From Patescibacteria group bacterium (GTDB lineage Bacteria > Patescibacteriota > Patescibacteriia > JBDRGY01), in contig JBDRGY010000001.1 in assembly GCA_043817315.1 (NCBI GenBank), forward strand, positions 9,732 through 73,731: DNA of 64,000 bases, read 5' to 3'. Made by a program: the position numbers and the translations under genes. Positions 19,261 to 60,337 of the stretch are shown piece after piece; positions within the stretch are counted from its first letter, which is position 1; each line of letters starts with the position of its first letter. The notes beneath the pieces were generated by a model. The model was not told where the DNA came from and did no database searches. It worked only from the letters and a program-made list of their open reading frames with translations.

Positions 19261-19758
19261 ATGAAAAATCCTTATCATAATCCACCTCATATATATTTAG
19301 ATGATACTGTATATTTTATTACAGCTAAAACAATTGGGAAAAATAATCATTTTAGTTCTAATAAGAAAAAAGAAATACTGAAAAATAGATTATCGCAAAC
19401 AGTGAAAGAATTGAAAATAATAATATATGCCTGGGTTATTCTTGATAACCACTATCACTTACTAATTAAAATAAAGAAAAAAAGCGACCTATCAAAGTTG
19501 ATGCAGCTATTCCATGGAAGAACGTCTTATATATTAAATAAAGTTGATGACAAAAAAGGCAGGCAAGTCTGGTTTAATTATTGGGACCATTGTATTAGAA
19601 ATGAAAAAGATTTTAATAATCATCTAAATTACATACATTTTAATCCGGTTAAACACGGCTTAGTTAGTAAACCAGGAGATTATAAATATTCGAGTTACGG
19701 CCAATATTTGAAGAAGGGTTATTATGAGCGGAAGAGACTAAAGCTCCAATCCACATAG
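19261..19758 (+). mobile_element. IS200/IS605-like HUH tyrosine transposase of the REP-associated (RAYT) type
   Basis: HuH motif NHYHLLIK and a catalytic-Tyr region YIHFNPVKHGLV...YKYSSY. The 3' end of the ORF is built from repeat sequence. Palindromic REP-like repeats flank it on both sides. Confidence 0.6.
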
Positions 19759-28400: not shown

Positions 28401-29783
28401 TTAGAAATTCGGGGATTCCGGAACATCTTCAAGGGATTTTTCCAGATTTCTAAAGGAAACTCTTTTCTCGTCAAAGAATAAATCAACAATACCAGTGGGG
28501 CCATTACGGTGTTTGGCGATATGGATTTGGGCGATACTTTGCTTTTCCGGGGGTAAATCCTTCTTATACATGGCTTCACGGTAGATAAACATGACTACAT
28601 CAGCGTCTTGTTCAATAGAACCGGATTCACGCAAATCAGCTAATTTGGGGATATTGGAAGGTCTTTGTTCTACGGCCCGAGACAGCTGAGACAAAGCCAA
28701 AACAGGTACTTTCAATTCCCGGGCGATCCCCTTAAGAGCTCTGGTAATCTCGGAAACTTCCTGGACACGATTATCGGATCCAGCCCGGCCTTCCATCAGC
28801 TGCAAGTAATCGATGATGATCAAGCCCAAATTATGTTCGGCCTGAAGCCGCCTGGCCTTAGTGCGCAATTCCATTATATTAGAGGTGGCTGAATCATCGA
28901 TATAAATGGGGGCTTCTGAAAGCACTCCCATGGCATGCCCGATTTTGGGGAAATCGTCGTCTTCCGGGCGATCGGAAAGACGACCGGTTCTCATTTTCCA
29001 CAATTCGACATTAGCTTCTGAGCAGAGTAAACGGTCAACTAATTGTTCTTTGGACATTTCCAGGCTGAATATGCCAACCGGGACTTTTTGTTTGGTAGCT
29101 ACGTGCCGGGCCATGTCCAGAGCCAGGGTGGTTTTTCCCATTGAGGGGCGGGAAGCTAAAATCACCAGGTCGGAAGCCTGCAAACCAGCCAGTTTATTAT
29201 CCAGGTCTGAAAAGCCGGTGGGAATCCCTCTGAGCTTGCCGGATTCGCGGTGCAGTTCATCGATCCGATCAAAGGCTTCGGTTAAAACATTTTTGATAGG
29301 AATAAAATTTTGTTTGAGGTATTTCTGGGATACTTGAAACAGGGACTGCTCAGCCTTATCCAGCAAAACATCGACTTCGTCAGTTTCCTGATAACCGAAA
29401 CCTAGAATTTCTGAAGCGGTATGTATTAATCGCCTCAGGGTAGATTTTTTCTGGACCGTATTGGCGTAACTGGCTACATGACTGGCTGTGGGCACTGAAT
29501 TAGCCAGAGTAGCAAGATAAGTTTTTCCACCGATCTCTTTTAGCTTGCCTTTTTCCTCTAAACGGTTGGAGAGGCTAAGGATATCAATCGGCTCGTGTTT
29601 TTCATACAGTTCCACCATGGACTCAAAGATAGCGTTGTGAGTGTCCTTGTAGAAATCACCGGGAAGTATTATATCGGCGATTTTAGTAATGGCGTCTTTA
29701 TCAATCAATAAAGACCCCAATACCGCCTGTTCGGCTTCAATATTTTGGGGTGGTAGCTTTTCCGTCTGCTCATTTTTGGCCAT
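28401..29783 (-). CDS. dnaB: replicative DNA helicase DnaB
   Basis: 460 aa, Walker A GSRPSMGKTTLAL, and DnaB N-terminal domain. Confidence 0.9.
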   Translation of the reverse strand: MAKNEQTEKLPPQNIEAEQAVLGSLLIDKDAITKIADIILPGDFYKDTHNAIFESMVELYEKHEPIDILSLSNRLEEKGKLKEIGGKTYLATLANSVPTASHVASYANTVQKKSTLRRLIHTASEILGFGYQETDEVDVLLDKAEQSLFQVSQKYLKQNFIPIKNVLTEAFDRIDELHRESGKLRGIPTGFSDLDNKLAGLQASDLVILASRPSMGKTTLALDMARHVATKQKVPVGIFSLEMSKEQLVDRLLCSEANVELWKMRTGRLSDRPEDDDFPKIGHAMGVLSEAPIYIDDSATSNIMELRTKARRLQAEHNLGLIIIDYLQLMEGRAGSDNRVQEVSEITRALKGIARELKVPVLALSQLSRAVEQRPSNIPKLADLRESGSIEQDADVVMFIYREAMYKKDLPPEKQSIAQIHIAKHRNGPTGIVDLFFDEKRVSFRNLEKSLEDVPESPNF

Positions 29784-29923
29784 AGTATTGTTTATGTTAA
29801 CAGAAAAGCAGATTATAGCAATAGCGTTATCAATAGCTTACCCACAGTGATTTTCCACAAAAAAGTGGATACTTGATTTTCTTGAAAATCCCTGTAAAAT
29901 ACTATATACTTTATAAATACTAT

Positions 29924-30023
29924 GGGTCGTTAGCTCAGTTGGTCCCTCGTTCTTGGTCTCTGACGCACCCTGCGAACTACGGGATCCCGTCCCCGCTTTT
30001 AGTGGGAGAGGGATAGAGCGCCA
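29924..30023 (+). other. disrupted duplicate of tRNA-Lys 5' part: nt 1-20 (29924-29943) + 70-nt insertion (29944-30013) + nt 21-30 tagagcgcca (30014-30023)
   Basis: The first 20 nt and the 10-nt D-stem/anticodon-stem segment are identical to the intact tRNA-Lys at 30269. They are separated by a structured 70-nt insert, ccctcg...gagggat. Confidence 0.55.
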
Positions 30024-30029
30024 TTGATA

Positions 30030-30278
30030 ATGCCCTACGTTTACATATTAAAGAGCCAAAAAGATAGAAACTTATATGTCGGGGCTACTTCTGATGTTAG
30101 AAAACGTTTCGATGAACATAATAGGGGGAGAGTGAAATCAACTAGAAATCGAAGGCCACTTGTACTAGTATATAAAGAGGAATATCGAACATTATCAGAA
30201 GCCAGAAAGAGGGAGTGGTATTTAAAACATCATCCCACGGGACAGCAATTGAAAAAGAAATTAATCATGGGTCGTTAG
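30030..30278 (+). CDS. small GIY-YIG nuclease-superfamily protein, copy 2; stop codon lies inside the tRNA-Lys 5' end
   Basis: MPYVYILKSQKDRNLYVGATSDVRKRFDEHNRG. Ends ...IMGR* with TAG at 30276-30278. Confidence 0.7.
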   Translation: MPYVYILKSQKDRNLYVGATSDVRKRFDEHNRGRVKSTRNRRPLVLVYKEEYRTLSEARKREWYLKHHPTGQQLKKKLIMGR

Positions 30279-30341
30279 CTCAGTTGGTAGAGCGCCAGCC
30301 TTTTAAGCTGGGCGTCACAGGTTCGAATCCTGTACGACCCA
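30269..30341 (+). tRNA. tRNA-Lys (anticodon TTT)
   Basis: Hand-folded cloverleaf. Acceptor gggtcgt/acgaccc, D-stem gctc/gagc, anticodon stem ccagc/gctgg with loop cTTTtaa, T-arm acagg-ttcgaat-cctgt. Confidence 0.9.
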
Positions 30342-30353
30342 CGGTCCATCTCA

Positions 30354-30443
30354 TACTGCGGCTTCCGCGTGAAAAAACAAGTTTCTCCCGCTGCAGCCTC
30401 CGCATGAGTGTACCTTTCCGAAAAATTGCACGCAATTTTTCGG
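30354..30443. promoter_or_regulatory. imperfect direct repeat (ctgcggcttccgcgtga / ctgcagcctccgcatga) followed by perfect 26-bp palindrome ccgaaaaattgc-ac-gcaatttttcgg
   Basis: Direct inspection. Lies between the tRNA-Lys and the promoter of the OMPdc-like gene. Confidence 0.45.
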
Positions 30444-30491
30444 ACAGAAGACAGACCCGAACAGGGTTTGTTTTTATTTGGGGTCCAGGGC

Positions 30492-30519
30492 TTGACAAAT
30501 TGGACCTATAGGGTAAGAT
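30492..30519 (+). promoter_or_regulatory. promoter TTGACA-16-TAAGAT for GC-rich OMPdc-like gene
   Basis: cttgacaaattggacctatagggtaagat, about 75 nt before the RBS ggaggtagcATG. Confidence 0.5.
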
Positions 30520-30595
30520 AGCTCAATTGGCTCTTTTTAGTGTTAGTTGTTGGCTGGGTCAAACGTGACCCGAAACGTGTGGCAAAGGAGGTAGC

Positions 30596-31393
30596 ATGAA
30601 GCCCGCAGACAGAGTGATGGCCAATGTTCAGGTCAGTGAGATGGGGGAGTTGATCGCCGCAGTGGATGCTCTGGGTCCCTACATCCAGACCTTCCGCATC
30701 GACACTTCGGAATCGGCGGCACTGGGGATTCCTCATGCCTTCAACGAGATCCACGAGCGGGGTCGGCAGGTCTTCTTTGACTGCCGCCTGCACGAGGATC
30801 CGGGAACCATGGCGGACACTGCCATCGAGCTGGCTCAGGCCAAGATCGCTTTCTTCAGCATCCACGCCTCAGCTGGCATGGCTGCCATGAGGGCGGCCGT
30901 GATCAACAAGGGTGACTGCAAGGTCCTGGCAGTGACTGTACCCCCGCACTTCAGCGGGACTGACTGTGAGAGGATCTACGGTGTCTCTCTGAAGACCAAG
31001 ACTATCCAGCTGGCTCATGAAGCCGAGACAGCAGGAGTGGACGGGCTGGTCTGTTCGGCGGCTCAGATGAAGATCCTTCGAGACAGCGGAGAGTTCGACG
31101 ATACCTTCATCGTGGTTACTGACATTCTGCCCAGCCCTTCGAGCGAGGAGAAGCGCAGAGGGCTGCTCAGTGCCTACGACGCCATAAGCGGCGGGGCTGA
31201 TGCCATCGTGGTTAGTCAGCTGACTGCTGATCTCTACGCGGTCGGTGCCGAGGTGACCGAAGCTGGGAGATCGGCCCTGTCCCATCTGATGGGTGCTGTG
31301 CAGCTGGGCCTCGGCGAGGTCAGCAAACGAGTCGGGCAGGCGGCTACCGGAGTTGGTAAGGCCAAGGCCAAGGTCGGCCCGGGCGAGGAGTAG
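30596..31393 (+). CDS. divergent orotidine-5'-phosphate decarboxylase-family protein (catalytic DxKxxD replaced by DCRLHE), with ~60 aa Gly/Ala/Lys-rich C-terminal tail; GC-rich
   Basis: Similarity to the PyrF motif regions: VFFDCRLHEDPGTMADT..FFSIHASAG and AETAGVDGLVCSAAQMKIL. GC content is far above the flanks. Confidence 0.55.
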   Translation: MKPADRVMANVQVSEMGELIAAVDALGPYIQTFRIDTSESAALGIPHAFNEIHERGRQVFFDCRLHEDPGTMADTAIELAQAKIAFFSIHASAGMAAMRAAVINKGDCKVLAVTVPPHFSGTDCERIYGVSLKTKTIQLAHEAETAGVDGLVCSAAQMKILRDSGEFDDTFIVVTDILPSPSSEEKRRGLLSAYDAISGGADAIVVSQLTADLYAVGAEVTEAGRSALSHLMGAVQLGLGEVSKRVGQAATGVGKAKAKVGPGEE

Positions 31394-31401
31394 CACGACA
31401 A

Positions 31402-31445
31402 GCGGTTTTTGGTAGATATTACCAGAAACCGCTATTTTATTTGTG
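31402..31445 (+). terminator. intrinsic terminator
   Basis: gcggtttttggta-gatat-taccagaaaccgc followed by tattttattt. Confidence 0.55.
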
Positions 31446-31493
31446 AAGATCATTTTTTTCTGTTAAAATTAAGATAAATAAACCCATTTTTTT

Positions 31494-34172
31494 ATGCCCA
31501 AAACCATTTGGCACAGTTCAACGATAGAAGAAGTCTTGGGAGACGTTAAGTCGGCAAAAACTGGCCTAACTATTAGCGAAGTAAAAAAAAGATTACATCA
31601 TTTTGGCTATAACGAGCTACCCAAAGAAAAAGGCTTAACTAAACTGACGATTCTACTGGAGCAGTTCAAAAGCTCCTTAATTTATGTTTTGCTGTCAGCT
31701 GTTTTTATTACACTTTTGATGAGTCACTTTATTGATGCTGGGGTAATTTTTGCATCCGTTGTTTTAAATGTGATAGTAGGATTTTTTCAGGAGAACAGGG
31801 CCTATAACGCCTTGGAGAAATTACGCCAGGTAGTTTCTTATCGAGCTGAGGTGAAACGAGAAGATCACGAGATGGAAATCGCGGTTGAGGAAATAGTACC
31901 GGGTGACATTTTAGTACTACGACCAGGGGAGAAAGTACCTGCCGATGCCCGATTAATATCAGCTAAAGATCTGCAAATCAATGAAGCCAGCCTAACTGGT
32001 GAATCATATCCAGAAAGTAAGCAAAATAAGAAACTGGTGGGAAAAGTAGATTTAGGTGATCGGAAGAATATGGCATATATGGGAACGGCTGTTACCCGAG
32101 GAGTAGGGGAAGCAGTAGTGGTGGCAACCGGTGCCCACACTGAAATTGGCAAAATAGCTTCTTTGATCAAAGAAACCAAAGAAGAACTGACTCCTTTGCA
32201 AAAACGTTTACAGAAATTTTCCAAATGGTTGGCCAAGGCAGTTTTATCAATCTCTGCTCTTTTATTTATTATAGGGGTAGTTTCGGGAAGAAATATTGAA
32301 GAGATGTTTACTACTTCGGTGGCAGTGGCCGTTTCAGCCATTCCCGAGGGATTGATCGTGGCGGTTACGGTTATCTTAACTATCGGCATGCGCCGCATTT
32401 TAAAAGAAAAAGGATTAGTAAAAAAACTGGTAGCTGCTGAAGCCTTGGGGTCAACAACAGTTATTTGTACTGATAAGACCGGAACATTAACTGAAGGCAT
32501 AATGCACGTTTCAGAGATAATTACTAACAATTATAATTTAGATACTACCAAGAAGAAGTCACCTGATATTTTTAAAAAGGGTCAATCAACATTGATGGCT
32601 TTGCATATCGGCATGTTGTGTAATAACGCCTTCGTGGAAAACGAAGAGGAAGATTTAATACAGTGGAAAGTGATTGGGAATCCCACGGAAAGGGCCTTGT
32701 TGGTAGCCGGAAATAAACTTGGTTTGCGCAAAAGCGAACTGGAAAAACACTATCCCCGACTCGATGAAATTCCTTTTGATTCGGCCAAGAAATACATGGT
32801 AACTCTAAACAAAAAAGACTCTCAGAAGAATTATGTCTTTATGAAGGGAGCTCCGGAGAAAGTGCTGGCCATGTGCAGCCGGATTGACGATGACGGAAAA
32901 GTAATTAAATTAACCGAGGAAAAACGTCAACAATTCCTCAAGCGCTTTGAGCAATTAAGCAGCCAGGGGCTGCGCTTGCTGTCTTTTGCCTACAAGGAAG
33001 TGTCTGCCGGCATTCACCAATTTGTAGACTTCCAGGAATGGGGAGAGAAATTAATTTTTGTTGGTTTTGTCTCCATCAAGGATCCTTTGCGCCCGGAAAC
33101 CAAGCAGGCGATTAAAATCTGCCGCAAGGCTGGCCTAAAGCCGATTATGATCACCGGTGACCATAAATTAACCGCTAAGGCCATTGCCTCTGAATTAGGT
33201 ATTCCAGCTGGCATTCACAATATTATGACCGGCGAAGAGATTATGGAAATCAGCGATAAAGATTTGGTCGCGAGAGTTAAAGATATTACCGTTTATGCCC
33301 GGGTTTCCCCGGAAGATAAGTTGCGGATTATTGACGCCTGGCAAGCGCGTGGCGAAGTAGTAGCCATGACTGGCGATGGAATCAATGATGCTCCGGCTCT
33401 AAAAGCGGCTGATATCGGAGTAGCTTTGGGTTCGGGTACCGATGTCACCAAAGAAACGGCTGAACTGATTATTTTGGATGACAACTTTAGTACAATTGTT
33501 AAAGCGATTGAACAAGGTAGGGTTATTTACGATAATATTAAAAAGGTAATACTATATCTTCTTTCTGATAGCTTTACCGAAATTATTATTATCGTTGGCG
33601 GTATTATCCTGGGTTTTCCCTTGCCTTTACTGGCGGCCCAGATTCTTTGGGTTAATATTGTTGATGACGGGCTGCCCAATTTAGCTTTGACAGCCGAACC
33701 CGAGGAGCCGGAAATCATGATCGAATCTCCTCAGAGGGTTGAGAAAGGCTTTTTGGACAAAGAAATGAAGGTGCTGATTGGTTTGATAAGCTTTATTACT
33801 GGAATTATTATCCTGGGGATTTTTTATTATTTTTGGCAGAAGACAGGCGATATAGTTTTGGCCCGGACAGCCGCTTTTACTGCCCTGGGTATCGATTCCC
33901 TACTTTATGTTTTTAGTACCCGGTCAGTCAGACACCCGATCTGGCACAAGAATCCGTTTTCCAATAAGTTGTTGGTTGGGGCGGTATTTATTGGGATTTT
34001 CTTACAACTCGCAGCAATTTACACTCCCTTCTTACAAAAGGTATTAAGAACGACCTCATTAAGCTGGCAGCAGTGGCAAATAATTATTCCCCTCACTCTT
34101 GTAGTAATATTTTTTATTGAGTTAACCAAGTACATCTTTATTCATAAACGGATTAAAGTTAAGCAAGAATAA
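31494..34172 (+). CDS. cation-transporting P-type ATPase (type II, Ca2+/Mg2+-ATPase-like)
   Basis: DKTGTLT phosphorylation site, TGDGINDAPAL hinge, 892 aa with N-terminal cation-ATPase domain and about 10 TM segments. Confidence 0.85.
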   Translation: MPKTIWHSSTIEEVLGDVKSAKTGLTISEVKKRLHHFGYNELPKEKGLTKLTILLEQFKSSLIYVLLSAVFITLLMSHFIDAGVIFASVVLNVIVGFFQENRAYNALEKLRQVVSYRAEVKREDHEMEIAVEEIVPGDILVLRPGEKVPADARLISAKDLQINEASLTGESYPESKQNKKLVGKVDLGDRKNMAYMGTAVTRGVGEAVVVATGAHTEIGKIASLIKETKEELTPLQKRLQKFSKWLAKAVLSISALLFIIGVVSGRNIEEMFTTSVAVAVSAIPEGLIVAVTVILTIGMRRILKEKGLVKKLVAAEALGSTTVICTDKTGTLTEGIMHVSEIITNNYNLDTTKKKSPDIFKKGQSTLMALHIGMLCNNAFVENEEEDLIQWKVIGNPTERALLVAGNKLGLRKSELEKHYPRLDEIPFDSAKKYMVTLNKKDSQKNYVFMKGAPEKVLAMCSRIDDDGKVIKLTEEKRQQFLKRFEQLSSQGLRLLSFAYKEVSAGIHQFVDFQEWGEKLIFVGFVSIKDPLRPETKQAIKICRKAGLKPIMITGDHKLTAKAIASELGIPAGIHNIMTGEEIMEISDKDLVARVKDITVYARVSPEDKLRIIDAWQARGEVVAMTGDGINDAPALKAADIGVALGSGTDVTKETAELIILDDNFSTIVKAIEQGRVIYDNIKKVILYLLSDSFTEIIIIVGGIILGFPLPLLAAQILWVNIVDDGLPNLALTAEPEEPEIMIESPQRVEKGFLDKEMKVLIGLISFITGIIILGIFYYFWQKTGDIVLARTAAFTALGIDSLLYVFSTRSVRHPIWHKNPFSNKLLVGAVFIGIFLQLAAIYTPFLQKVLRTTSLSWQQWQIIIPLTLVVIFFIELTKYIFIHKRIKVKQE

Positions 34173-55340: not shown

Positions 55341-55412
55341 TATTGACTCCTCTTTTCTCCAGCCAAAGCTGGGAAACCGTTAGTGGCTACCTCCCAACGA
55401 AAATAGGCTGAC

Positions 55413-55643
55413 TCAATCAATTACCAGAGAACCCGGCAAGAAGATGCGCGAGTTCGGGTGGCCCTCGATCGTGCCGTCGGGTGTTATCTTAACAGTATTA
55501 GTGCCGTCCACAAATTGGCACCCGCCGCTGGCAAAGGCTACAACTATTTGCGGCTTCATCAGCCTGCAGCTTGTCATTACGTCATTGCCTATTCCCGATA
55601 TGCAGATTATATCTGCCTTGCTGATCGCCTCGGCCCAGTTCAT
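55413..55643 (-). CDS. island gene I, hypothetical (76 aa) with ITPDGTIEG motif; may be fused with gene H if a frameshift is present
   Basis: ORF. It is 16 nt downstream of H in a different frame. Confidence 0.4.
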   Translation of the reverse strand: MNWAEAISKADIICISGIGNDVMTSCRLMKPQIVVAFASGGCQFVDGTNTVKITPDGTIEGHPNSRIFLPGSLVID

Positions 55644-55659
55644 CTCATCTCCTGTGTGT

Positions 55660-55989
55660 TTACCATGTTTCGAAGCAGCGGTGAAACTGCACCCGTTCTT
55701 GCAGCTCGATCCAGGCTCGTATTGGTGCCCGGTCCACCTGAACCCAGACCTGGCTTTTTATGTACCAGGTATCCTCGTTAACATCGAATCTCCCGTCCTT
55801 TTCCCGGTAAAGACGGCCTTGGTAATCCATCAGGAAACGAACTGAACCATCTTGGTCATTGACCATGGTCAGGATAGCCCCCTCTTTGACCAATTCAACG
55901 GCCTCGGGTTTTCCTTCCCAGGTCCCGCCATTCTTTAAGTCGTTGATGCGAAAGGGCTGTTCCGTATTGGCCAGACTGGCGATACTCAT
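55660..55989 (-). CDS. island gene H, hypothetical (109 aa)
   Basis: ORF with RBS agaggagag. Minus-strand promoter TTGACT-17-TATGAT at 56035-56062. Confidence 0.45.
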   Translation of the reverse strand: MSIASLANTEQPFRINDLKNGGTWEGKPEAVELVKEGAILTMVNDQDGSVRFLMDYQGRLYREKDGRFDVNEDTWYIKSQVWVQVDRAPIRAWIELQERVQFHRCFETW

Positions 55990-56034
55990 GGTGGCTCTCC
56001 TCTAAGGTGATTGAATGAAACGAACGGTTATTTA

Positions 56035-56062
56035 TCATATTAGAAACCACTAATTCAGTCAA
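56035..56062 (-). promoter_or_regulatory. island promoter P_H (TTGACT-17-TATGAT, minus strand)
   Basis: Reverse complement reads gtttgactgaattagtggtttctaatatgat. Confidence 0.5.
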
Positions 56063-56097
56063 ACAAAAAATCCCTGCACCACGTAGGTGATGCAGGG
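56063..56097 (-). terminator. island terminator T2 (minus strand)
   Basis: Plus-strand ccctgcaccacgtaggtgatgcaggg, preceded by aaacaaaaaat. On the minus strand this is a hairpin followed by atttttgttt. Confidence 0.6.
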
Positions 56098-56124
56098 CAT
56101 AGAGTTAGCAAAGAACAGTTGAAG

Positions 56125-56418
56125 TCAACTTTGAGGTTGACCTCTTCTCTGGCGAATCTGCTGGCCGCCTTTGATGTCTTCCTGGATCTCCAATTGCTGG
56201 TTTCTGTCGTGGACGTTGATGCCGTTGTCGTCAATGGTCACCGTGCCTGGCCGGGTTCCATGGATGACCACAGCCAGTCCGTCCCGGTATTCCTTGCAGT
56301 CAGCAATCTGACCTTTGAGGATGATCTTGGGTGCAGAGGTTCCCTTATCACCGGTGACTGACTGGGTCTTATCTACCAGTCGGGCAGACTGACCGAGTAA
56401 AACCTGACGATCGATCAT
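56125..56418 (-). CDS. island gene G, hypothetical (97 aa)
   Basis: ORF, 13 nt downstream of gene F. Confidence 0.4.
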   Translation of the reverse strand: MIDRQVLLGQSARLVDKTQSVTGDKGTSAPKIILKGQIADCKEYRDGLAVVIHGTRPGTVTIDDNGINVHDRNQQLEIQEDIKGGQQIRQRRGQPQS

Positions 56419-56431
56419 TAGCGTGCTCCTT

Positions 56432-57070
56432 TCAGACCTGACAGGCTCGAGCCGGGGGATAGACCCAGCTGTTACCCTGAAACTGGGTGACCAAGGGCAC
56501 TTCTATCACGAAGCCCTCGTCCTCTTCACTATCGATAACCTGAGCGAAGCAATCATGAAAAGCCCCAGCGGTCGGCTTGATCGTTCCGTCAGTTCGGATC
56601 ATCACTATGTGTTCCGGACCCTCGGAATTATCTTCATGGACGGTGACCAGGGTAATAACCACGATGTCAGGATCGCGCTCCGAAATGATCGGCCCTTCGA
56701 CTCTGCCTTGACGGATGACCTTTCCTGAACTGGCCTTGACGATCTGCAGGCCGTGGCAATCACGCAGCACGCTTTGCAGGAATTCGACGGGCAGGTGACG
56801 CCTTTCGGTAATCGGTAACCAGGTGCCATCTTCACCGATACGACGCTCGATCCGTATCTCGGGGATAGCCGAGTAGAACCCATCTGGTGTCACGGTAATT
56901 ATTCGGGGTTCGATGTCGTTGGGTCCCATCATCTTGATGTCCACTGGTCCCTTGGTATCTGACTGAGGGGTTATTTCTTCAACGGATCCCTCAAAAAGGA
57001 CTGCCCCATCCCGGTCAATCCGTGGATCTACTGCCCTGACCTGATCGTAATCAGCTAGCAAAACAGCCAT
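56432..57070 (-). CDS. island gene F, hypothetical (212 aa) with repeated (I/V)TPDG / RTDGTIKP motifs
   Basis: ORF. Promoter P_F lies upstream. Confidence 0.45.
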   Translation of the reverse strand: MAVLLADYDQVRAVDPRIDRDGAVLFEGSVEEITPQSDTKGPVDIKMMGPNDIEPRIITVTPDGFYSAIPEIRIERRIGEDGTWLPITERRHLPVEFLQSVLRDCHGLQIVKASSGKVIRQGRVEGPIISERDPDIVVITLVTVHEDNSEGPEHIVMIRTDGTIKPTAGAFHDCFAQVIDSEEDEGFVIEVPLVTQFQGNSWVYPPARACQV

Positions 57071-57135
57071 TGACCGATTCTCCTTATGGACTGCTGGGCC
57101 GATAGTAACCCACTGGAATGAGAAAAACTGGCTCT

Positions 57136-57164
57136 ATCTTATTAAAAACTAGAAGTTTAGTCAA
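57136..57164 (-). promoter_or_regulatory. island promoter P_F (TTGACT-17-TAAGAT, minus strand)
   Basis: Reverse complement reads ttgactaaacttctagtttttaataagat. Confidence 0.5.
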
Positions 57165-57165
57165 G

Positions 57166-57191
57166 AAAAAAAGCCCTGCAATTTGCAGAGC
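57166..57191 (-). terminator. island terminator T3 (minus strand)
   Basis: Plus-strand aaaaaaa + gccctgcaatttgcagagc. Confidence 0.55.
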
Positions 57192-57210
57192 TTGGGGAAT
57201 GAGTCCTAGA

Positions 57211-57771
57211 TTAGTCCTCATCTCGATCAGTGTCGATGAAGAGAACCTGTTGCCACTCCAACCAGTCATCAGAGTCTGACTTCCGAAACTGTACTACAGC
57301 ATTACCAGGTTGGTTGGCCAAGGAACCGTCCACGGTTCTGACAAGCAGACGCCTATCATTACCGCCTAGGTTGAGAAAATCTCCAGTACGGTAATGATCA
57401 AGGTAGCCGAAAGAAAGCCCATGTGGGACCTGCTGGTCGGCATTCCAGATACGGATAGACCAGCCAACTTGTACTACTTCATTGTGGTGAGCTTCCCAGG
57501 GCCCGAACCGGATCAGACTGCTAAGTTCCTGCCATCTGTCTGGTAGGTATACAACAGAGATAACCACCGAGGGATGGCTAAGACACTTACCGTCCCGTCC
57601 CACTTCGTAGGTTTGTTCTCCGATATGTTCCAAATCGACAGTGAAAGCCAAGCCGGACTCAGTCGGCCTCACTTTGGTAATTTCGGCAATCGGAGCTTCT
57701 GATCCTGGGGTCAGGGTACAAACGATTTTAACCAGCTGTTCCGGCTTGATAAAATCATGAATGATCATCAT
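57211..57771 (-). CDS. island gene E, hypothetical (~186 aa from MMIIHDF...), paralog of gene A (shared W-x-RIW-N/D-A and DDWLEWQQV motifs)
   Basis: ORF in the track runs 57211..57801. RBS gggagga precedes the ATGATG at 57771. Confidence 0.45.
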   Translation of the reverse strand: MMIIHDFIKPEQLVKIVCTLTPGSEAPIAEITKVRPTESGLAFTVDLEHIGEQTYEVGRDGKCLSHPSVVISVVYLPDRWQELSSLIRFGPWEAHHNEVVQVGWSIRIWNADQQVPHGLSFGYLDHYRTGDFLNLGGNDRRLLVRTVDGSLANQPGNAVVQFRKSDSDDWLEWQQVLFIDTDRDED

Positions 57772-57815
57772 TCCTCCCGTTTGGCGGTTTCTTCCTTTCA
57801 ATGTGCAATTAAACT

Positions 57816-57844
57816 ATCTTAGGAAATTAAGCCAAATAAGTCAA
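57816..57844 (-). promoter_or_regulatory. island promoter P_E (TTGACT-17-TAAGAT, minus strand)
   Basis: Reverse complement reads ttgacttatttggcttaatttcctaagat. Confidence 0.5.
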
Positions 57845-57871
57845 GTAACACAGCACCAGGTTCGGTGCAGG

Positions 57872-57901
57872 ATAAAAAAACCCCGTCAAAAACGACAGGG
57901 T
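57872..57901 (-). terminator. island terminator T4 (minus strand)
   Basis: Plus-strand aaaaaaa + ccccgtcaaaaacgacaggg. Confidence 0.55.
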
Positions 57902-57914
57902 CTAAGGAACGAAG

Positions 57915-58574
57915 TTAAGAGGTTAGTTGCCTGCGGCGATACAGCACAGCGGCGCGTTCGTCCACTGGGACAAAACCCAGTTCCGGCACTTCTTTCTCCA
58001 CGATGAAGTGGTCGTAGAACTGTGGGGGATCAGCACTGATTTGATGTGAGCCAGAATCACGTCCCGCTGCCAGGCGCAGGAAAAATCCCCGATTATGATC
58101 TGGAGGCATCTGCCGGATGTTGCCGGTAAAGATGATGCCCTTTTTCTGGCCTATACGGCGACGTCGCTCCTCGGTGTTGACGATGCGGACCACATCAGCT
58201 ACTTGGAAACGGCCTACTTGATGAGGATCCAGCTGACCTTGCAGCAGCAGCCAGGCCAGATCCTGATTGGCCATCAGGAAAGTGAGGAAGAACCAAGTGT
58301 CCTCGATTCTGACCAGGATTTCGATGACACCTCGCTTGGGGTAGGAGAAGTTGGGTGTAATGGTCTCAGCGACCTTACCACCCAGGTTAACCGTCAGCTT
58401 CTTCAAGGCGTGGAAGGGTCTATCCAGACGAATCTCTGCCTCCCGATCAGTAAAGGGGAGTCTGCCCAGCTCAATAAGGAGTTCAGCGAATTGGCTGGGG
58501 CGGATCCTGACACTTCTTCCTTTACAGAGAAGTAGTTTCAGTAGATCCAGAGGATACCTCTGTCTCTTGATCAT
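57915..58574 (-). CDS. island gene D, hypothetical (219 aa)
   Basis: ORF, third gene of the B-C-D unit. Confidence 0.4.
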   Translation of the reverse strand: MIKRQRYPLDLLKLLLCKGRSVRIRPSQFAELLIELGRLPFTDREAEIRLDRPFHALKKLTVNLGGKVAETITPNFSYPKRGVIEILVRIEDTWFFLTFLMANQDLAWLLLQGQLDPHQVGRFQVADVVRIVNTEERRRRIGQKKGIIFTGNIRQMPPDHNRGFFLRLAAGRDSGSHQISADPPQFYDHFIVEKEVPELGFVPVDERAAVLYRRRQLTS

Positions 58575-58589
58575 CTCTGACTCCTCGTC

Positions 58590-58871
58590 TCAATCATCAA
58601 CCCCGAACCTAACTTGCTTGAGAGTGGCACCGTCTTGGACAAAGAGCCGGAACTCATCACCAGGAACCGGCACCTGGCCATCGAAGGAGCAATTGAACAT
58701 GCATTCGCTTCGGCCAGTGACCATCTCTATCTGGACACCAACTCCCAGGTCGGTCAGTCTGGCAAACCTTCCTTTCAGATGATATTCACCGGCCAGGATG
58801 CGTTCGCTGGGAGTCTTGGGATCAGCCACTACTATAGTGTCGCCCGGGGTTAATCTTTCCACGGTTTCCAT
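58590..58871 (-). CDS. island gene C, hypothetical (93 aa)
   Basis: ORF. Confidence 0.4.
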   Translation of the reverse strand: METVERLTPGDTIVVADPKTPSERILAGEYHLKGRFARLTDLGVGVQIEMVTGRSECMFNCSFDGQVPVPGDEFRLFVQDGATLKQVRFGVDD

Positions 58872-58883
58872 TCAGCCTCTCCT

Positions 58884-59432
58884 TTATCGGGACAGCTTGT
58901 CTAGAGTGATCCATTTGCTGGCACCGGCGACCCAGTAAAACATCATCTGATCCTGCTGGCCCTTGATGTTGCCCTCGAGGTCGATGGTGGCTTGACGGTC
59001 TGTCTTGTTCTTGTCGCGATAGGTGACAATCCAGCCTTCTGGTGGATGATTGACCCTAATCAGGTCATTGATGGTGCCTTCCAGCAGGATCTCGGGATTG
59101 CCGTCTGGATCTTGAGACGGATAACCAATACCGATATAATCTCCGTCTCTTAGCGCTGCCCGCATGACCATTTCCTTTCTCGGCTCGGTAACTTGCCTCC
59201 ATTTTTCTTCAATTGGCAGCCGGTACTCGATTTTTTCTTCCGGATAGTCCACTAAGACTCCGTCAGGCTGGACTAACAGCCAGTCGTAGTTGATGCCCTT
59301 GCCTGGTCTGATCAGCCAGATACAGAAGTTATCTCCAGCTGTCTTTAAAGACATTATCAAGCCCAGATATTCCTCGGTTCCGTCAGGGTGGATACGACGG
59401 ATCCGATCTCCTTCCTGCAGGTAGAAGGCCAT
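58884..59432 (-). CDS. island gene B, hypothetical (182 aa) with HPDG/QPDG motifs
   Basis: ORF with RBS aataggag. Confidence 0.45.
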   Translation of the reverse strand: MAFYLQEGDRIRRIHPDGTEEYLGLIMSLKTAGDNFCIWLIRPGKGINYDWLLVQPDGVLVDYPEEKIEYRLPIEEKWRQVTEPRKEMVMRAALRDGDYIGIGYPSQDPDGNPEILLEGTINDLIRVNHPPEGWIVTYRDKNKTDRQATIDLEGNIKGQQDQMMFYWVAGASKWITLDKLSR

Positions 59433-59477
59433 TAGTAGCTCCTATTTGATGTCGATTTCTAAGGTGCGAATTGGGTT

Positions 59478-59506
59478 ATCTTAGCCAATATAATATATAA
59501 AGTCAA
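59478..59506 (-). promoter_or_regulatory. island promoter P_B (TTGACT-17-TAAGAT, minus strand)
   Basis: Reverse complement reads ttgactttatatattatattggctaagat. Confidence 0.5.
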
Positions 59507-59507
59507 G

Positions 59508-59541
59508 AAATAAAAACCCCGCTAAGTCTAATTTAGCGGGG
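59508..59541 (-). terminator. island terminator T5 (minus strand)
   Basis: Plus-strand aaataaaaa + ccccgctaagtctaatttagcgggg. Confidence 0.6.
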
Positions 59542-59550
59542 GACTAATGA

Positions 59551-60195
59551 TCAAGCTGCTGCCTCCACTTTGCCACCAATTGGCCATTTGGCACGGGCTT
59601 CCTCGGGCGGTGTCGGTTGTAAGCAGTATGCTTCGAAGGTAACTAGCCCCAGTTTGTTGCCGAACCAGCGGTAGATTTGGTAGGTTCGTTTACCATCCCT
59701 GACTCTGGCATCAAACCTGGCAAAAACTGGTACGTCCCTGTAAGCAGCATTCCGCACCGTGATGATGACGCCATCGGGGGTTACCCGGGTACCCTGGACT
59801 TTGCCACTGACTAGTACACCTACCCGGCCGCCGCGTTGGCGATCCTTCCTGCGCAGAGATTCGGGTACGGGAGTATCTGATATTTGAATGATGGTTTCCC
59901 TGGGCATAGTTGAAAAGGGTAGGGTGTAGCCTGGACCCAGGGCACAGACATCGTACCAGTCCAGCCATTCCTCAGATCCAGGTTCCTGGAACTGGACAAA
60001 ACGGGTGCTCCTGGAATTAACCACTGAACCGTCACAGCAATTCATGTGGATGCTATATCCCTTTTTATCAGAATTCCACAGGATGGAACCGGTTCCAGAA
60101 TGTCCTTGGTACTCCCATTCTTTCACGCACTTGTCGGCGACAGCGTCCCAGATACGTAGATGCCAGCCTTTACCGACTTGCTTTCTCTCGGGCAT
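59551..60195 (-). CDS. island gene A, hypothetical (214 aa), paralog of gene E
   Basis: ORF. Motifs WHLRIWDAVA and SEEWLDWYDV match WSIRIWNADQ and SDDWLEWQQV of gene E. Confidence 0.45.
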   Translation of the reverse strand: MPERKQVGKGWHLRIWDAVADKCVKEWEYQGHSGTGSILWNSDKKGYSIHMNCCDGSVVNSRSTRFVQFQEPGSEEWLDWYDVCALGPGYTLPFSTMPRETIIQISDTPVPESLRRKDRQRGGRVGVLVSGKVQGTRVTPDGVIITVRNAAYRDVPVFARFDARVRDGKRTYQIYRWFGNKLGLVTFEAYCLQPTPPEEARAKWPIGGKVEAAA

Positions 60196-60337
60196 CAGTT
60201 ATCCCTTTCGGCGCTGGCGCCAGCCTTCGGGTCGTTTACTGCCTCGATTCCTTCTAGAGGTGATTCCTAGTGAACTGTGGGTCAGGGTTAACCAGTTACC
60301 GTTTCGCGAAAGAAATTTCAGACATAGGTAACCAGGA

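What the first reader, a model, noticed from the sequence alone, without database searches (positions are those of the whole stretch)
30354..31445. GC-rich stand-alone module next to tRNA-Lys: divergent OMP-decarboxylase-family protein with altered catalytic motif, own promoter, 26-bp perfect palindrome and terminator
The protein aligns with PyrF motif regions, but the canonical DxKxxD catalytic segment reads DCRLHE (Lys to Arg, Asp to Glu). It also carries a ~60-aa Gly/Ala/Lys-rich tail. It may therefore not be a true OMP decarboxylase but another member of the OMPDC/KGPDC/HPS-type superfamily. It is much more GC-rich than its surroundings and lies immediately downstream of a tRNA, a classic integration hotspot. 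Upstream there is a perfect palindrome ccgaaaaattgc-ac-gcaatttttcgg (30418-43) plus an imperfect 17-nt direct repeat. Small-genome symbiont-like bacteria generally lack pyrimidine de novo synthesis, so an isolated pyrF-like gene is odd.
Basis: partly seen in the sequence, partly recalled or inferred. Interest (0 to 1): 0.65.

Follow-up and report, generated by a model that had tools for sequence, protein, structure and literature searches.

The report
Inactivated PyrF-like gene beside tRNA-Lys
A small symbiont-type bacterium (Patescibacteria) carries a foreign, GC-rich gene derived from the pyrimidine enzyme OMP decarboxylase that has lost nearly every residue needed for that reaction yet is still kept by selection, so it is a repurposed enzyme shell of unknown role rather than a real pyrF.

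Summary
Window 30596-31393 (+) is a 265-aa ORF with its own sigma-70-like promoter, strong Shine-Dalgarno sequence and 15-bp terminator. It lies 253 nt downstream of tRNA-Lys(UUU). It is the strongest composition outlier in the window (GC 0.61, GC3 0.73, against a mean GC3 of 0.45).

The protein is a confident (beta/alpha)8 barrel whose nearest sequence and fold relatives are all PyrF. It cannot be an OMP decarboxylase. Both tetrad lysines are Arg, the trans-subunit Asp is Glu/Leu, the ribose-binding Asp is Gln, the pyrimidine-umbrella Ser is His, and the whole phosphate gripper is gone.

Only one relative exists among billions of proteins (62% identity, another Patescibacterium). It sits in the same slot (dnaB | tRNA-Lys | gene | P-type ATPase) with the same GC anomaly and most of the same substitutions. 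dN/dS is 0.28 (CI 0.20-0.39), so the gene is maintained.

Related genomes have this slot empty or filled with other genes. The best reading is an old horizontal acquisition from a GC-rich donor, only partly ameliorated.

The 26-bp palindrome is the middle hairpin of a three-hairpin tRNA trailer. The KGPDC/HPS idea is not supported. This is a new variant of a known family, of moderate to low interest, with unknown function.

The parts
30269..30342 (+). tRNA-Lys(UUU), the left boundary of the variable slot
   Evidence: ARAGORN; Rfam tRNA at 75 bits. It is 100% identical in L002 and lies divergent from dnaB in several related Patescibacteria.
30343..30414 (+). Trailer hairpin H1 (72 nt, imperfect), directly after the tRNA
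Evidence: The same fold is predicted in the window and in L002. All 17 shared pairs are formed in both, and 2 pairs change on both sides. The stretch is about 80% identical between lineages.
30418..30443 (+). Trailer hairpin H2, the 26-bp perfect palindrome
   Evidence: -15.4 kcal/mol, z -5.8. In L002 a different inverted repeat (CCCCaCCGACG..CGTCGGcGGGG) occupies the same position. In assembly L001 the AC loop reads GT, its reverse complement.
30447..30479 (+). Trailer hairpin H3: stem CAGACCC/GGGTTTG plus a TTTTTATTT run, the probable terminator of the tRNA transcript
   Evidence: Fold, conserved in L002. The consensus scan did not list it, probably because the stem can extend into the T-run. 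The assignment is my reading of the fold.
30492..30519 (+). Sigma-70-like promoter TTGACA-16-TAAGAT of the module
   Evidence: 10 of 12 matches. Both hexamers are identical in L002.
30520..30595 (+). 5' leader of about 76 nt with a small hairpin GGGTCA-AACG-TGACCC (30556-30571) and the Shine-Dalgarno AAGGAGGT (30585-30592)
   Evidence: Sequence. 76% identical to L002, with the hairpin kept (GGGTC..GGCCC). No Rfam match. The fold z-score is only -1.9.
30596..31393 (+). Gene for a 265-aa PyrF-derived (beta/alpha)8 barrel with a remodelled active site and a C-terminal helical extension
31401..31443 (+). Intrinsic terminator of the module (15-bp stem 31401-31433, then ATTTTATTTG)
   Evidence: -21.3 kcal/mol, z -6.5. 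No mismatches to L002 across the hairpin and a single 1-nt indel just after it, 49 of 50 aligned columns.

Best explanation
Origin (inferred). The module is one monocistronic gene that entered the variable slot between tRNA-Lys(UUU) and a P-type ATPase gene by horizontal transfer. The donor was GC-rich, plausibly another Patescibacterium or a similar organism with a 'GPQ/PPxEIG'-type PyrF. The transfer happened before two present-day Patescibacteria lineages split. Third-codon positions have since drifted only part of the way toward the host's composition.

The protein (shown). It keeps the OMP decarboxylase barrel. It has lost the chemistry and the substrate grip of that enzyme:
- K34R and K64R replace both lysines of the Lys-Asp-Lys-Asp' tetrad.
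- The trans-subunit Asp is Glu in the window protein and Leu in the orthologue.
- The ribose-binding Asp is Gln12.
- The pyrimidine-umbrella Ser is His118.
- The phosphate gripper (Gln, Arg/Tyr, Gly-Arg) is replaced by non-conserved residues.
It therefore does not make UMP from OMP.

Selection (shown). It is not decaying. The reading frame, promoter, ribosome-binding site and terminator are intact in both lineages. dN/dS is 0.28. The new pocket residues Q12, R34, D36, D62, R64, D68 and P116-P117-H118 are identical in both.

Function (inferred, weakly). The barrel now binds, or acts on, a ligand that is not a 5'-phosphate ester, probably a small anionic or carboxylate-bearing metabolite held by the Arg-Asp-Arg network. 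The heptad-patterned C-terminal helix that ends in GVGKAKxKV would mediate self-association or docking to a partner.

Flanking RNA elements (structure shown, role inferred). The upstream palindrome is not a regulator of this gene. It is the second of three hairpins in the tRNA-Lys 3' trailer. The third hairpin, with its T-run, ends the tRNA transcript and insulates it from the module's own promoter.
For: Family and fold:
- PF00215 match.
- AlphaFold model with pLDDT 90 and pTM 0.87, a (b/a)8 barrel plus helix 222-259.
- All 50 PDB fold hits listed are OMPDC, with TM about 0.8 when normalised to the target.
- PDB sequence hits are OMPDC only.

Loss of function:
- Scores 91 bits against a cut-off of 193 for the PyrF equivalog model.
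- Of the columns 100% conserved in 51 canonical PyrFs, D12, K34, G36, K64, D67, T117, S118, P175, G176, R178, D186, Q187, R189, G207, R208 and P209 are changed in both family members.
- The roles of these residues come from PMC12631982 and PMC12874384. In the latter, a triple gripper variant drops kcat/Km from 1.1e7 to 0.037 M-1 s-1.

Descent from PyrF:
- The best non-family hits (P0122-P0143, 100-129 bits) almost all keep every canonical motif; P0136, P0137 and P0140 deviate at a few positions.
- One of them is named as Patescibacteria.

Selection:
- dN/dS 0.28, bootstrap CI 0.20-0.39; 0.23 for the barrel and 0.55 for the tail.
- The frame is intact in both lineages although the pairwise dS is about 1.
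- Promoter, Shine-Dalgarno and terminator are conserved.

Foreign origin:
- GC3 is 0.73 and 0.70 in the two lineages, against 0.42-0.48 in the neighbours.
- GC1 and GC2 (0.64, 0.46) match a PyrF from a 63% GC genome (0.67, 0.44), whose GC3 is 0.89.
- The gene is absent within 8 kb of dnaB in 80 related genomes.
- The slot is empty in L066 (about 75 nt between tRNA-Lys and the ATPase start). In L024 it holds a CitMHS_2 transporter.
- Trailer, promoter and terminator are found only in the two carrier lineages.

Trailer structure.
Against: - Only two sequences define the family, so 'conserved new pocket' rests on a single comparison.
- No ligand, partner or operon context points to a function. 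The neighbouring ATPase is separated from the gene by a terminator.
- The pocket geometry was not inspected in coordinates.
- The amelioration argument is a rough calculation. The neighbours' synonymous sites are saturated (pS 0.62-0.79), so timing is uncertain. Selection maintaining the high GC cannot be excluded.
- No mobility gene or att repeat documents the transfer.
- The rest of the genome was not available, so a real pyrF and other pyr genes elsewhere cannot be ruled in or out.
- The H3 terminator was not called by the scan tool.
- Covariation in H1 is not statistically significant with two sequences (117 of 500 shuffles).
Confidence: 0.65

Rival explanations
1. It is still a working OMP decarboxylase, with Arg standing in for Lys and a different way of holding the phosphate. 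It would give this symbiont a last step of UMP synthesis from scavenged orotate or OMP.
For: The fold and family are PyrF. Asp62, the central Asp of the tetrad, is kept, as are the structural motifs LAVTV and GVDGxxCS. Some close canonical PyrFs sit next to a pyrE-like gene in small genomes, so a pyrF-pyrE salvage pair exists in such organisms.
Against: - Three of the four tetrad residues are changed, as are the ribose Asp, the umbrella Ser and all phosphate-gripper residues.
- The gripper positions are not even conserved between the two orthologues: R/G, S/T and Q/S.
- Removing the three gripper side chains alone costs about 3e8-fold in kcat/Km (PMC12874384).
- The score is far below the PyrF equivalog cut-offs.
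- No pyrE lies beside it or anywhere in the window.
Confidence: 0.03
2. It is a functionless relic: a transferred pyrF that lost its activity and is on the way to being deleted.
For: - It evolves about three times faster at the protein level than its neighbours (61.5% against 83-86% identity; dN/dS 0.28 against 0.08).
- The tail is nearly relaxed (0.55).
- The family has only two members.
- No functional context is apparent.
Against: - dN/dS is well below 1, with a CI of 0.20-0.39.
- Both lineages keep a full-length frame, with no stop or frameshift, after about one synonymous substitution per site.
- Promoter, Shine-Dalgarno and terminator are more conserved than the coding neighbours' silent sites.
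- The substituted pocket residues are identical in both lineages.
Confidence: 0.1
3. It belongs to the metal-dependent branch of the OMPDC suprafamily (3-keto-L-gulonate-6-phosphate decarboxylase or hexulose-6-phosphate synthase type).
For: PF00215 covers those enzymes as well. The active site clearly differs from PyrF.
Against: - No NCBIfam hit to any HPS or KGPDC model, even at E up to 1. Only three PyrF models hit.
- PDB sequence and fold hits are all OMPDC.
- The nearest proteins are canonical PyrFs.
- From my knowledge of Gerlt and co-workers' suprafamily papers (not re-read here), those enzymes keep the Lys of DxKxxD and a phosphate-binding site, and use a Glu at the end of strand 2 as a Mg ligand. 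This protein has Arg64, no phosphate site and Arg34.
Confidence: 0.04
4. The high GC does not mark foreign origin. It is maintained by selection on the DNA or RNA (a structured RNA, an antisense gene, or codon preference) in a gene that is native to the lineage and was lost elsewhere.
For: - The anomaly is equally strong in two lineages whose neighbouring genes are saturated at silent sites.
- pS is lower in this gene than in its neighbours (0.55 against 0.62-0.79).
- A 194-aa antisense ORF exists in the window.
Against: - The mRNA folds no better than shuffled sequence (z -0.9).
- The antisense ORF is not conserved in L002.
- No Rfam hit.
- GC1 and GC2 are also donor-like.
- The gene and all its flanking signals are absent from the same slot in related genomes.
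- A donor GC3 of about 0.9 decaying to 0.7 over roughly half a substitution per site is arithmetically feasible (my estimate).
Confidence: 0.1

Closest known systems
Bacterial type-1 orotidine 5'-phosphate decarboxylase (PyrF; e.g. PDB 3LDV Vibrio cholerae, 1EIX E. coli, 1DBT B. subtilis)
   Same: - Same Pfam family and (beta/alpha)8 fold.
- 20-30% identity over residues 7-208.
- Keeps the central Asp of the tetrad and the LAVTV and GVDGxVCS motifs.
   Different: - Lys to Arg at both tetrad lysines.
- Asp' to Glu/Leu.
- Ribose Asp to Gln.
- Umbrella Ser to His.
- PGxR to (T)D/N-I-L.
- DQxR to K-R/G-x-G.
- GRP to S/T-Q/S-L.
- Adds a helical extension of about 25-30 aa.
- Below the equivalog cut-offs (91 against 193 bits).
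The uncultivated-bacteria PyrF subfamily represented by P0122/P0123 (one named Patescibacteria), with the motifs 'GPQ.V' and 'PP.EIGSP'
   Same: Best non-family hits at 100-129 bits. They share local signatures such as HASAGxxAMxAAVxNKGxxKVLAVTV, IYGxS..KV.QFA and AGVDGIICS. This subfamily is the probable ancestral stock.
   Different: Those proteins almost all keep every catalytic and gripper residue; P0136, P0137 and P0140 deviate at a few positions. At least one relative sits next to a pyrE-like gene. No intermediate forms were found between 129 and 543 bits.
KGPDC / HPS members of the OMPDC suprafamily
   Same: Same broad Pfam family and barrel. Like them, this protein does not do OMP chemistry.
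   Different: No specific sequence or fold affinity. It lacks the DxKxxD Lys and a phosphate site.
Pseudoenzymes or repurposed TIM-barrel enzymes in general
   Same: Catalytic residues are lost while the fold and purifying selection are retained.
   Different: I found no report of an OMPDC-derived pseudoenzyme. Whether this one is non-catalytic or has a new activity is unknown.

Membership tests
OMP decarboxylase (PyrF, EC 4.1.1.23) | (beta/alpha)8 barrel of the OMPdecase family | tested here: met
   PF00215 at 52 bits. AF2 model with pLDDT 90. All 50 fold hits listed are OMPDC.
OMP decarboxylase (PyrF, EC 4.1.1.23) | Catalytic tetrad Lys-Asp-Lys-Asp' (human K281-D312-K314-D317'; PMC12631982) | tested here: not met
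   R34, D62, R64, and E67 (L67 in P0002). These columns are 100% K/D/K/D in 51 canonical PyrFs.
OMP decarboxylase (PyrF, EC 4.1.1.23) | Ribose-binding Asp at the end of strand 1, and Thr' after the DxKxxD motif | tested here: not met
   D12 is Gln in both members. T71 is kept in the window protein but is Asn in P0002.
OMP decarboxylase (PyrF, EC 4.1.1.23) | Pyrimidine-umbrella Ser (yeast S154, human S372) | tested here: not met
   LTS is replaced by PPH (His118) in both members.
OMP decarboxylase (PyrF, EC 4.1.1.23) | Phosphodianion gripper (Gln, Tyr/Arg, Gly-Arg) | tested here: not met
   Q187 is R/G, R189 is G, and G207-R208 is S-Q / T-S. These positions are not conserved between the two members.
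OMP decarboxylase (PyrF, EC 4.1.1.23) | Reaches the curated equivalog score | tested here: not met
   NF001273: 91 against 193 bits. TIGR01740: 69 against 92 bits.
OMP decarboxylase (PyrF, EC 4.1.1.23) | Companion pyrimidine genes (pyrE and others) in the genome | tested here: inconclusive
   There is no pyrE and no second pyrF in the 64-kb window.
KGPDC / HPS branch of the OMPDC suprafamily | Specific similarity to KGPDC or HPS models or structures | tested here: not met
   NCBIfam returned only PyrF models at E up to 1. There are no KGPDC or HPS entries among the PDB sequence hits or the 50 fold hits listed.
KGPDC / HPS branch of the OMPDC suprafamily | Retained Lys of DxKxxD, and an acidic metal ligand at the end of strand 2 (from my knowledge of the suprafamily literature) | tested here: not met
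   Arg64 and Arg34 occupy those positions. The residue roles were not re-checked in a paper here.
tRNA-targeted integrative genomic island | Compositional anomaly, and absence from the same site in relatives | tested here: met
tRNA-targeted integrative genomic island | Integrase gene, and a direct repeat of the tRNA 3' end at the distal boundary | tested here: not met
   The module holds a single ORF. Only chance matches of 7-12 nt to the tRNA occur downstream. The upstream GIY-YIG gene is a nuclease, not an integrase.

The most novel reading that the evidence does not exclude
The protein is the founding member of a new functional branch of the OMPDC suprafamily, and the first without a phosphate-binding site. 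Its Arg34-Asp62-Arg64 network, together with Gln12, Asp36, Asp68 and His118, would bind or transform a non-phosphorylated anionic metabolite, for instance a nucleobase- or orotate-like carboxylate scavenged from the host. That would give an episymbiotic Patescibacterium a new salvage or sensing capability.
Probability: 0.2. Interest if true: 0.6.

Novelty: new variant of a known kind. Interest (0 to 1): 0.33.

Why it matters
OMP decarboxylase is a textbook case of extreme catalytic proficiency, and its active site is almost invariant across life. This natural descendant has swapped both lysines for arginines and discarded the phosphate gripper, yet it is still under purifying selection. It is therefore a rare natural experiment in how this barrel can be repurposed.

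In practical terms, the gene is annotated in GenBank as 'orotidine 5'-phosphate decarboxylase / HUMPS family protein'. It should not be counted as evidence for pyrimidine biosynthesis in metabolic reconstructions of Patescibacteria.

The locus also shows that the site downstream of tRNA-Lys is a variable cargo slot in this group of genomes. The family has only two known members and no functional lead, so the wider impact is limited for now.

Tried and rejected
- **Antisense gene as the cause of high GC.** The 194-aa minus-strand ORF (30869-31453) has no counterpart in L002. Rejected as a by-product of GC-rich sequence.
- **Structured RNA inside the ORF.** The fold z-score is -0.9, no better than a control piece of the ATPase gene. 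Rejected.
- **Known RNA families in the trailer, the leader or anywhere in the window.** Rfam finds only the two tRNAs.
- **Defence-system or phage protein.** No PADLOC hit and no meaningful PHROG hit.
- **Cargo of a phage or plasmid.** Only ordinary pyrF at 31% identity or less.
- **Integrase-type att repeat of the tRNA 3' end.** None found.
It is 14/17, is not detected by the repeat finder and is not conserved. It is simply the two arms of hairpin H1.
- **Other copies of the palindrome in the window.** None.
- **Assembly chimera.** Excluded by the independent contig L001.
- **More family members.** A word-indexed search of 5.8e9 proteins and an exhaustive HMM search of 1.84e9 representatives found only P0002.
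- **Literature on OMPDC pseudoenzymes or OMPDC in Patescibacteria.** Nothing found.
- **Caveat.** The residue conclusions rest, not on those two rows.
Full report
**What is there.**
- Window 30596-31393 (+) is an ATG-to-TAG ORF of 265 aa.
- It lies 253 nt downstream of tRNA-Lys(UUU) at 30269-30342 and 100 nt upstream of a P-type cation ATPase gene (31494-34172).
- dnaB lies on the other strand at 28401-29783.
- The ORF has GC 0.608 and GC3 0.726. The window as a whole is 0.431 GC. It is the most extreme of 65 ORFs, whose GC3 averages 0.448 (sd 0.073).
- An independent ENA assembly (L001, 1,746 bp) matches window 29933-31678 at 99.5% and encodes the identical protein, so the GC-rich piece is not a mis-join.

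**Signals around the gene.**
- A TTGACA-16-TAAGAT promoter-like site lies at 30492-30519.
- The Shine-Dalgarno sequence AAGGAGGT ends 3 nt before the ATG.
- A 15-bp hairpin followed by ATTTTATTTG lies at 31401-31443 (-21.3 kcal/mol, z -6.5).
- The '17-nt direct repeat' is 14/17 by my reading, is not picked up by the repeat finder and is not conserved in the orthologous locus.

**The protein is PyrF-derived but cannot be a PyrF.**
- Pfam gives OMPdecase at 52 bits.
- NCBIfam's PyrF equivalogs are hit far below their cut-offs (91 against 193 bits; 69 against 92), and no HPS or KGPDC model is hit at all.
- PDB sequence hits are OMPDCs only.
- An AlphaFold model built on a 53-sequence alignment is confident (pLDDT 90.3, pTM 0.87). 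It shows a (beta/alpha)8 barrel plus a long C-terminal helix, residues 222-259.
- All 50 Foldseek PDB hits listed are OMPDC chains, with TM about 0.8 when normalised to the target.
- In the 53-sequence alignment I listed the columns that are 100% conserved in the 51 canonical PyrFs.
  - Kept: F60, D62, L111-A-V-T-V115, G150, S154, V173, A196, G200 and V205.
  - Changed in both family members: D12Q, K34R, G36D, K64R, D67E/L, T117P, S118H, P175T, G176D/N, R178L, D186K, Q187R/G, R189G, G207S/T, R208Q/S and P209L.

**What the changed residues do in real OMPDC.**
- By motif equivalence these are the catalytic tetrad (human K281, D312, K314, D317'), the ribose-binding Asp259 and Thr321', the base-binding Ser372, and the phosphate binders Gln430, Tyr432, Gly450 and Arg451 (PMC12631982).
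- In yeast OMPDC, removing just the three gripper side chains lowers kcat/Km from 1.1e7 to 0.037 M-1 s-1 (PMC12874384).
Only one of the four tetrad residues survives, and the whole phosphate site is gone.
- No alignment shift rescues a Lys.

**A two-member family.**
- A search of 5.8e9 proteins found only one close relative, P0002 (273 aa, 62% identity, Patescibacteria MAG GCA_018818805.1). After that the hits fall to about 30% identical PyrFs.
- An exhaustive HMM search of 1.84e9 cluster representatives found nothing between the family itself (543 bits) and 129 bits.
- The best outsiders (P0122-P0143) almost all keep every canonical motif; three (P0136, P0137, P0140) deviate at a few positions. 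One is named as Patescibacteria.
- The protein shares local signatures with this subfamily, so that is the likely ancestral stock. No transitional forms are known.

**Same slot, same anomaly, under selection.**
- P0002 lies in the same arrangement: recR-ybaB-dnaB on one strand, then tRNA-Lys(UUU), the gene and the P-type ATPase on the other.
- Its GC is 0.583 and its GC3 is 0.697, against 0.42-0.44 for dnaB and the ATPase.
- Between the two lineages DnaB is 86% identical and the ATPase 82.5%, but this protein only 61.5%.
- dN/dS is 0.28, against 0.08 for the ATPase.
- The bootstrap CI is 0.20-0.39. The barrel gives 0.23 and the tail 0.55.
- Both copies are full length after about one synonymous substitution per site, which neutral decay would not allow (inference).
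- Many substituted pocket residues are identical in both: N10-V11-Q12, R34, D36, R64, D68, P116-P117-H118, L178, K186 and G189. The former phosphate-gripper positions differ: R/G, S/T and Q/S.
- My reading is that the phosphate site was abandoned and drifts, while the former base/ribose site was remodelled and is now conserved.

**Origin.**
- Using DnaB as a handle, I fetched 80 loci from related Patescibacteria at 60-74% DnaB identity. None encodes an OMPDC-like protein within 8 kb.
- Several of them keep tRNA-Lys divergent from dnaB.
- In L066 the ATPase starts about 75 nt after tRNA-Lys, an empty slot.
- In L024, whose tRNA-Lys is 97% identical, the slot holds a 461-aa CitMHS_2 transporter.
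- L012 has a GHKL-ATPase-domain ORF between tRNA-Lys and the ATPase, but there the tRNA is in the opposite orientation, so it is not strictly the same slot.
- The trailer, promoter/leader and terminator sequences of the module occur only in the two carrier lineages.
- GC1 and GC2 of the ORF (0.64, 0.46) equal those of a PyrF from a 63% GC genome (0.67, 0.44). GC3 is lower (0.73 against 0.89).
- A two-state decay from about 0.9 toward 0.43 over roughly half a silent substitution per site per lineage gives about 0.7, so partial amelioration is feasible (my estimate).
- No integrase, no att-like repeat of the tRNA 3' end and no phage or plasmid relatives document the route of entry.
- I conclude that this is an old horizontal gain into a variable slot, not a recent island.

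**The palindrome and the tRNA trailer.**
- The 143 nt after the tRNA fold into three hairpins in both lineages (z -4.4 and -6.0).
- H1 (30343-30414) has all 17 shared pairs formed in both, and two pairs changed on both sides. With only two sequences this is not significant (117 of 500 shuffles reach it).
- H2 is the palindrome. L002 has a completely different inverted repeat at the same place.
- H3 (30447-30475, plus a T-run to 30479) looks like the terminator of the tRNA transcript. The scan tool did not list it, probably because the stem can extend into the T-run.
- The promoter of the module follows 17 nt later. So the palindrome belongs to the tRNA's 3' trailer rather than to the regulation of the gene (inference).
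- In L001 the two loop bases AC read GT, the exact reverse complement. This is either a flipped hairpin or an assembly ambiguity.

**Function.**
- Nothing identifies a ligand or a partner.
- The gene is monocistronic and is separated from the ATPase by a terminator whose hairpin has no mismatches between the lineages, with a single 1-nt indel just after the stem.
- The C-terminal helix has hydrophobic residues at 3-4 spacing that are conserved in both proteins (L228, L231, V235, L239, V242, V246, A249/A250, V253). It ends in the conserved GVGKAKxKV. That pattern suggests helix-helix packing or docking (inference).
- My best guess is a ligand-binding or neo-catalytic barrel for a non-phosphorylated anionic metabolite. 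I hold that part at roughly 0.3-0.4.
- The claims 'not an OMP decarboxylase' (about 0.95), 'maintained by selection' (about 0.85) and 'horizontally acquired' (about 0.75) are much firmer.

**Verdict.** It is partly wrong: not a KGPDC/HPS-type member, and not a recent integrase-type island. This is a new variant of a known family, of moderate to low interest. The concrete annotation consequence is that it should not be read as pyrimidine biosynthesis.

Noticed in passing
window 29882-30278 (also L066 3973-4170 and L002 3385-3569): Directly after a promoter-like site (TTGAAA-17-TATACT, 29882-29910) comes a truncated 5' copy of tRNA-Lys:
- tRNA nt 1-20 at 29924-29943
- a 70-nt GC-rich insert with inverted ends TCCCTC..GAGGGA
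- tRNA nt 20-29 at 30014-30023
- an 82-aa GIY-YIG nuclease ORF (30030-30278; PF01541, E 6e-17), whose stop codon lies inside the intact tRNA

L002 keeps only remnants of this. A Jacksonbacteria locus (L066) has the same theme: tRNA nt 1-13, then an insert with a TCCGCC/GGCGGA hairpin, then tRNA nt about 22-33, then the intact tRNA.

It looks like a homing-endonuclease cassette that split the tRNA-Lys gene at the anticodon stem and regenerated it by carrying its own copy of the 5' part. If so, the tRNA is now co-transcribed with the nuclease gene.
   Followed up: partly
window 30239-30257: Between the window and the independent assembly L001, six of the eight differences in 1,746 nt are third-codon-position (synonymous) changes. 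They are packed into 19 nt at the 3' end of the GIY-YIG ORF, just upstream of the tRNA. Such a dense synonymous patch suggests a gene-conversion tract or a recoded nuclease target, rather than ordinary mutation.
   Followed up: no
window 30430-30431: The two loop bases of the 26-bp palindrome are AC in the window and GT (the reverse complement) in assembly L001. The hairpin appears flipped between strains or assemblies.
   Followed up: no
window about 55400-60200, minus strand: A second GC-rich block (GC 0.50-0.54, GC3 0.50-0.62) holds a run of seven or so minus-strand ORFs of 93-219 aa. The five tested have no Pfam match. It is not rRNA. It may be another foreign island of orphan genes.
   Followed up: partly
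window 19261-19758 (+): An AT-rich outlier ORF (GC 0.29, GC3 0.27) between secY and a 1150-aa gene matches the IS200-like Y1 transposase family (PF01797, E 9e-10). It is probably a RAYT/IS200-type element inserted at the end of the ribosomal-protein cluster.
   Followed up: partly
window 30520-30595 and 31401-31433: The 5' leader hairpin (30556-30571) and especially the 3' terminator hairpin are unusually conserved between the two lineages. The terminator has no mismatches and one 1-nt indel over 50 aligned columns, loop included, while coding DNA is about 75% identical. Terminator loops normally drift, so this hairpin may have an additional role, for example as a protein-binding site, a recombination boundary or part of the ATPase promoter region.
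   Followed up: no
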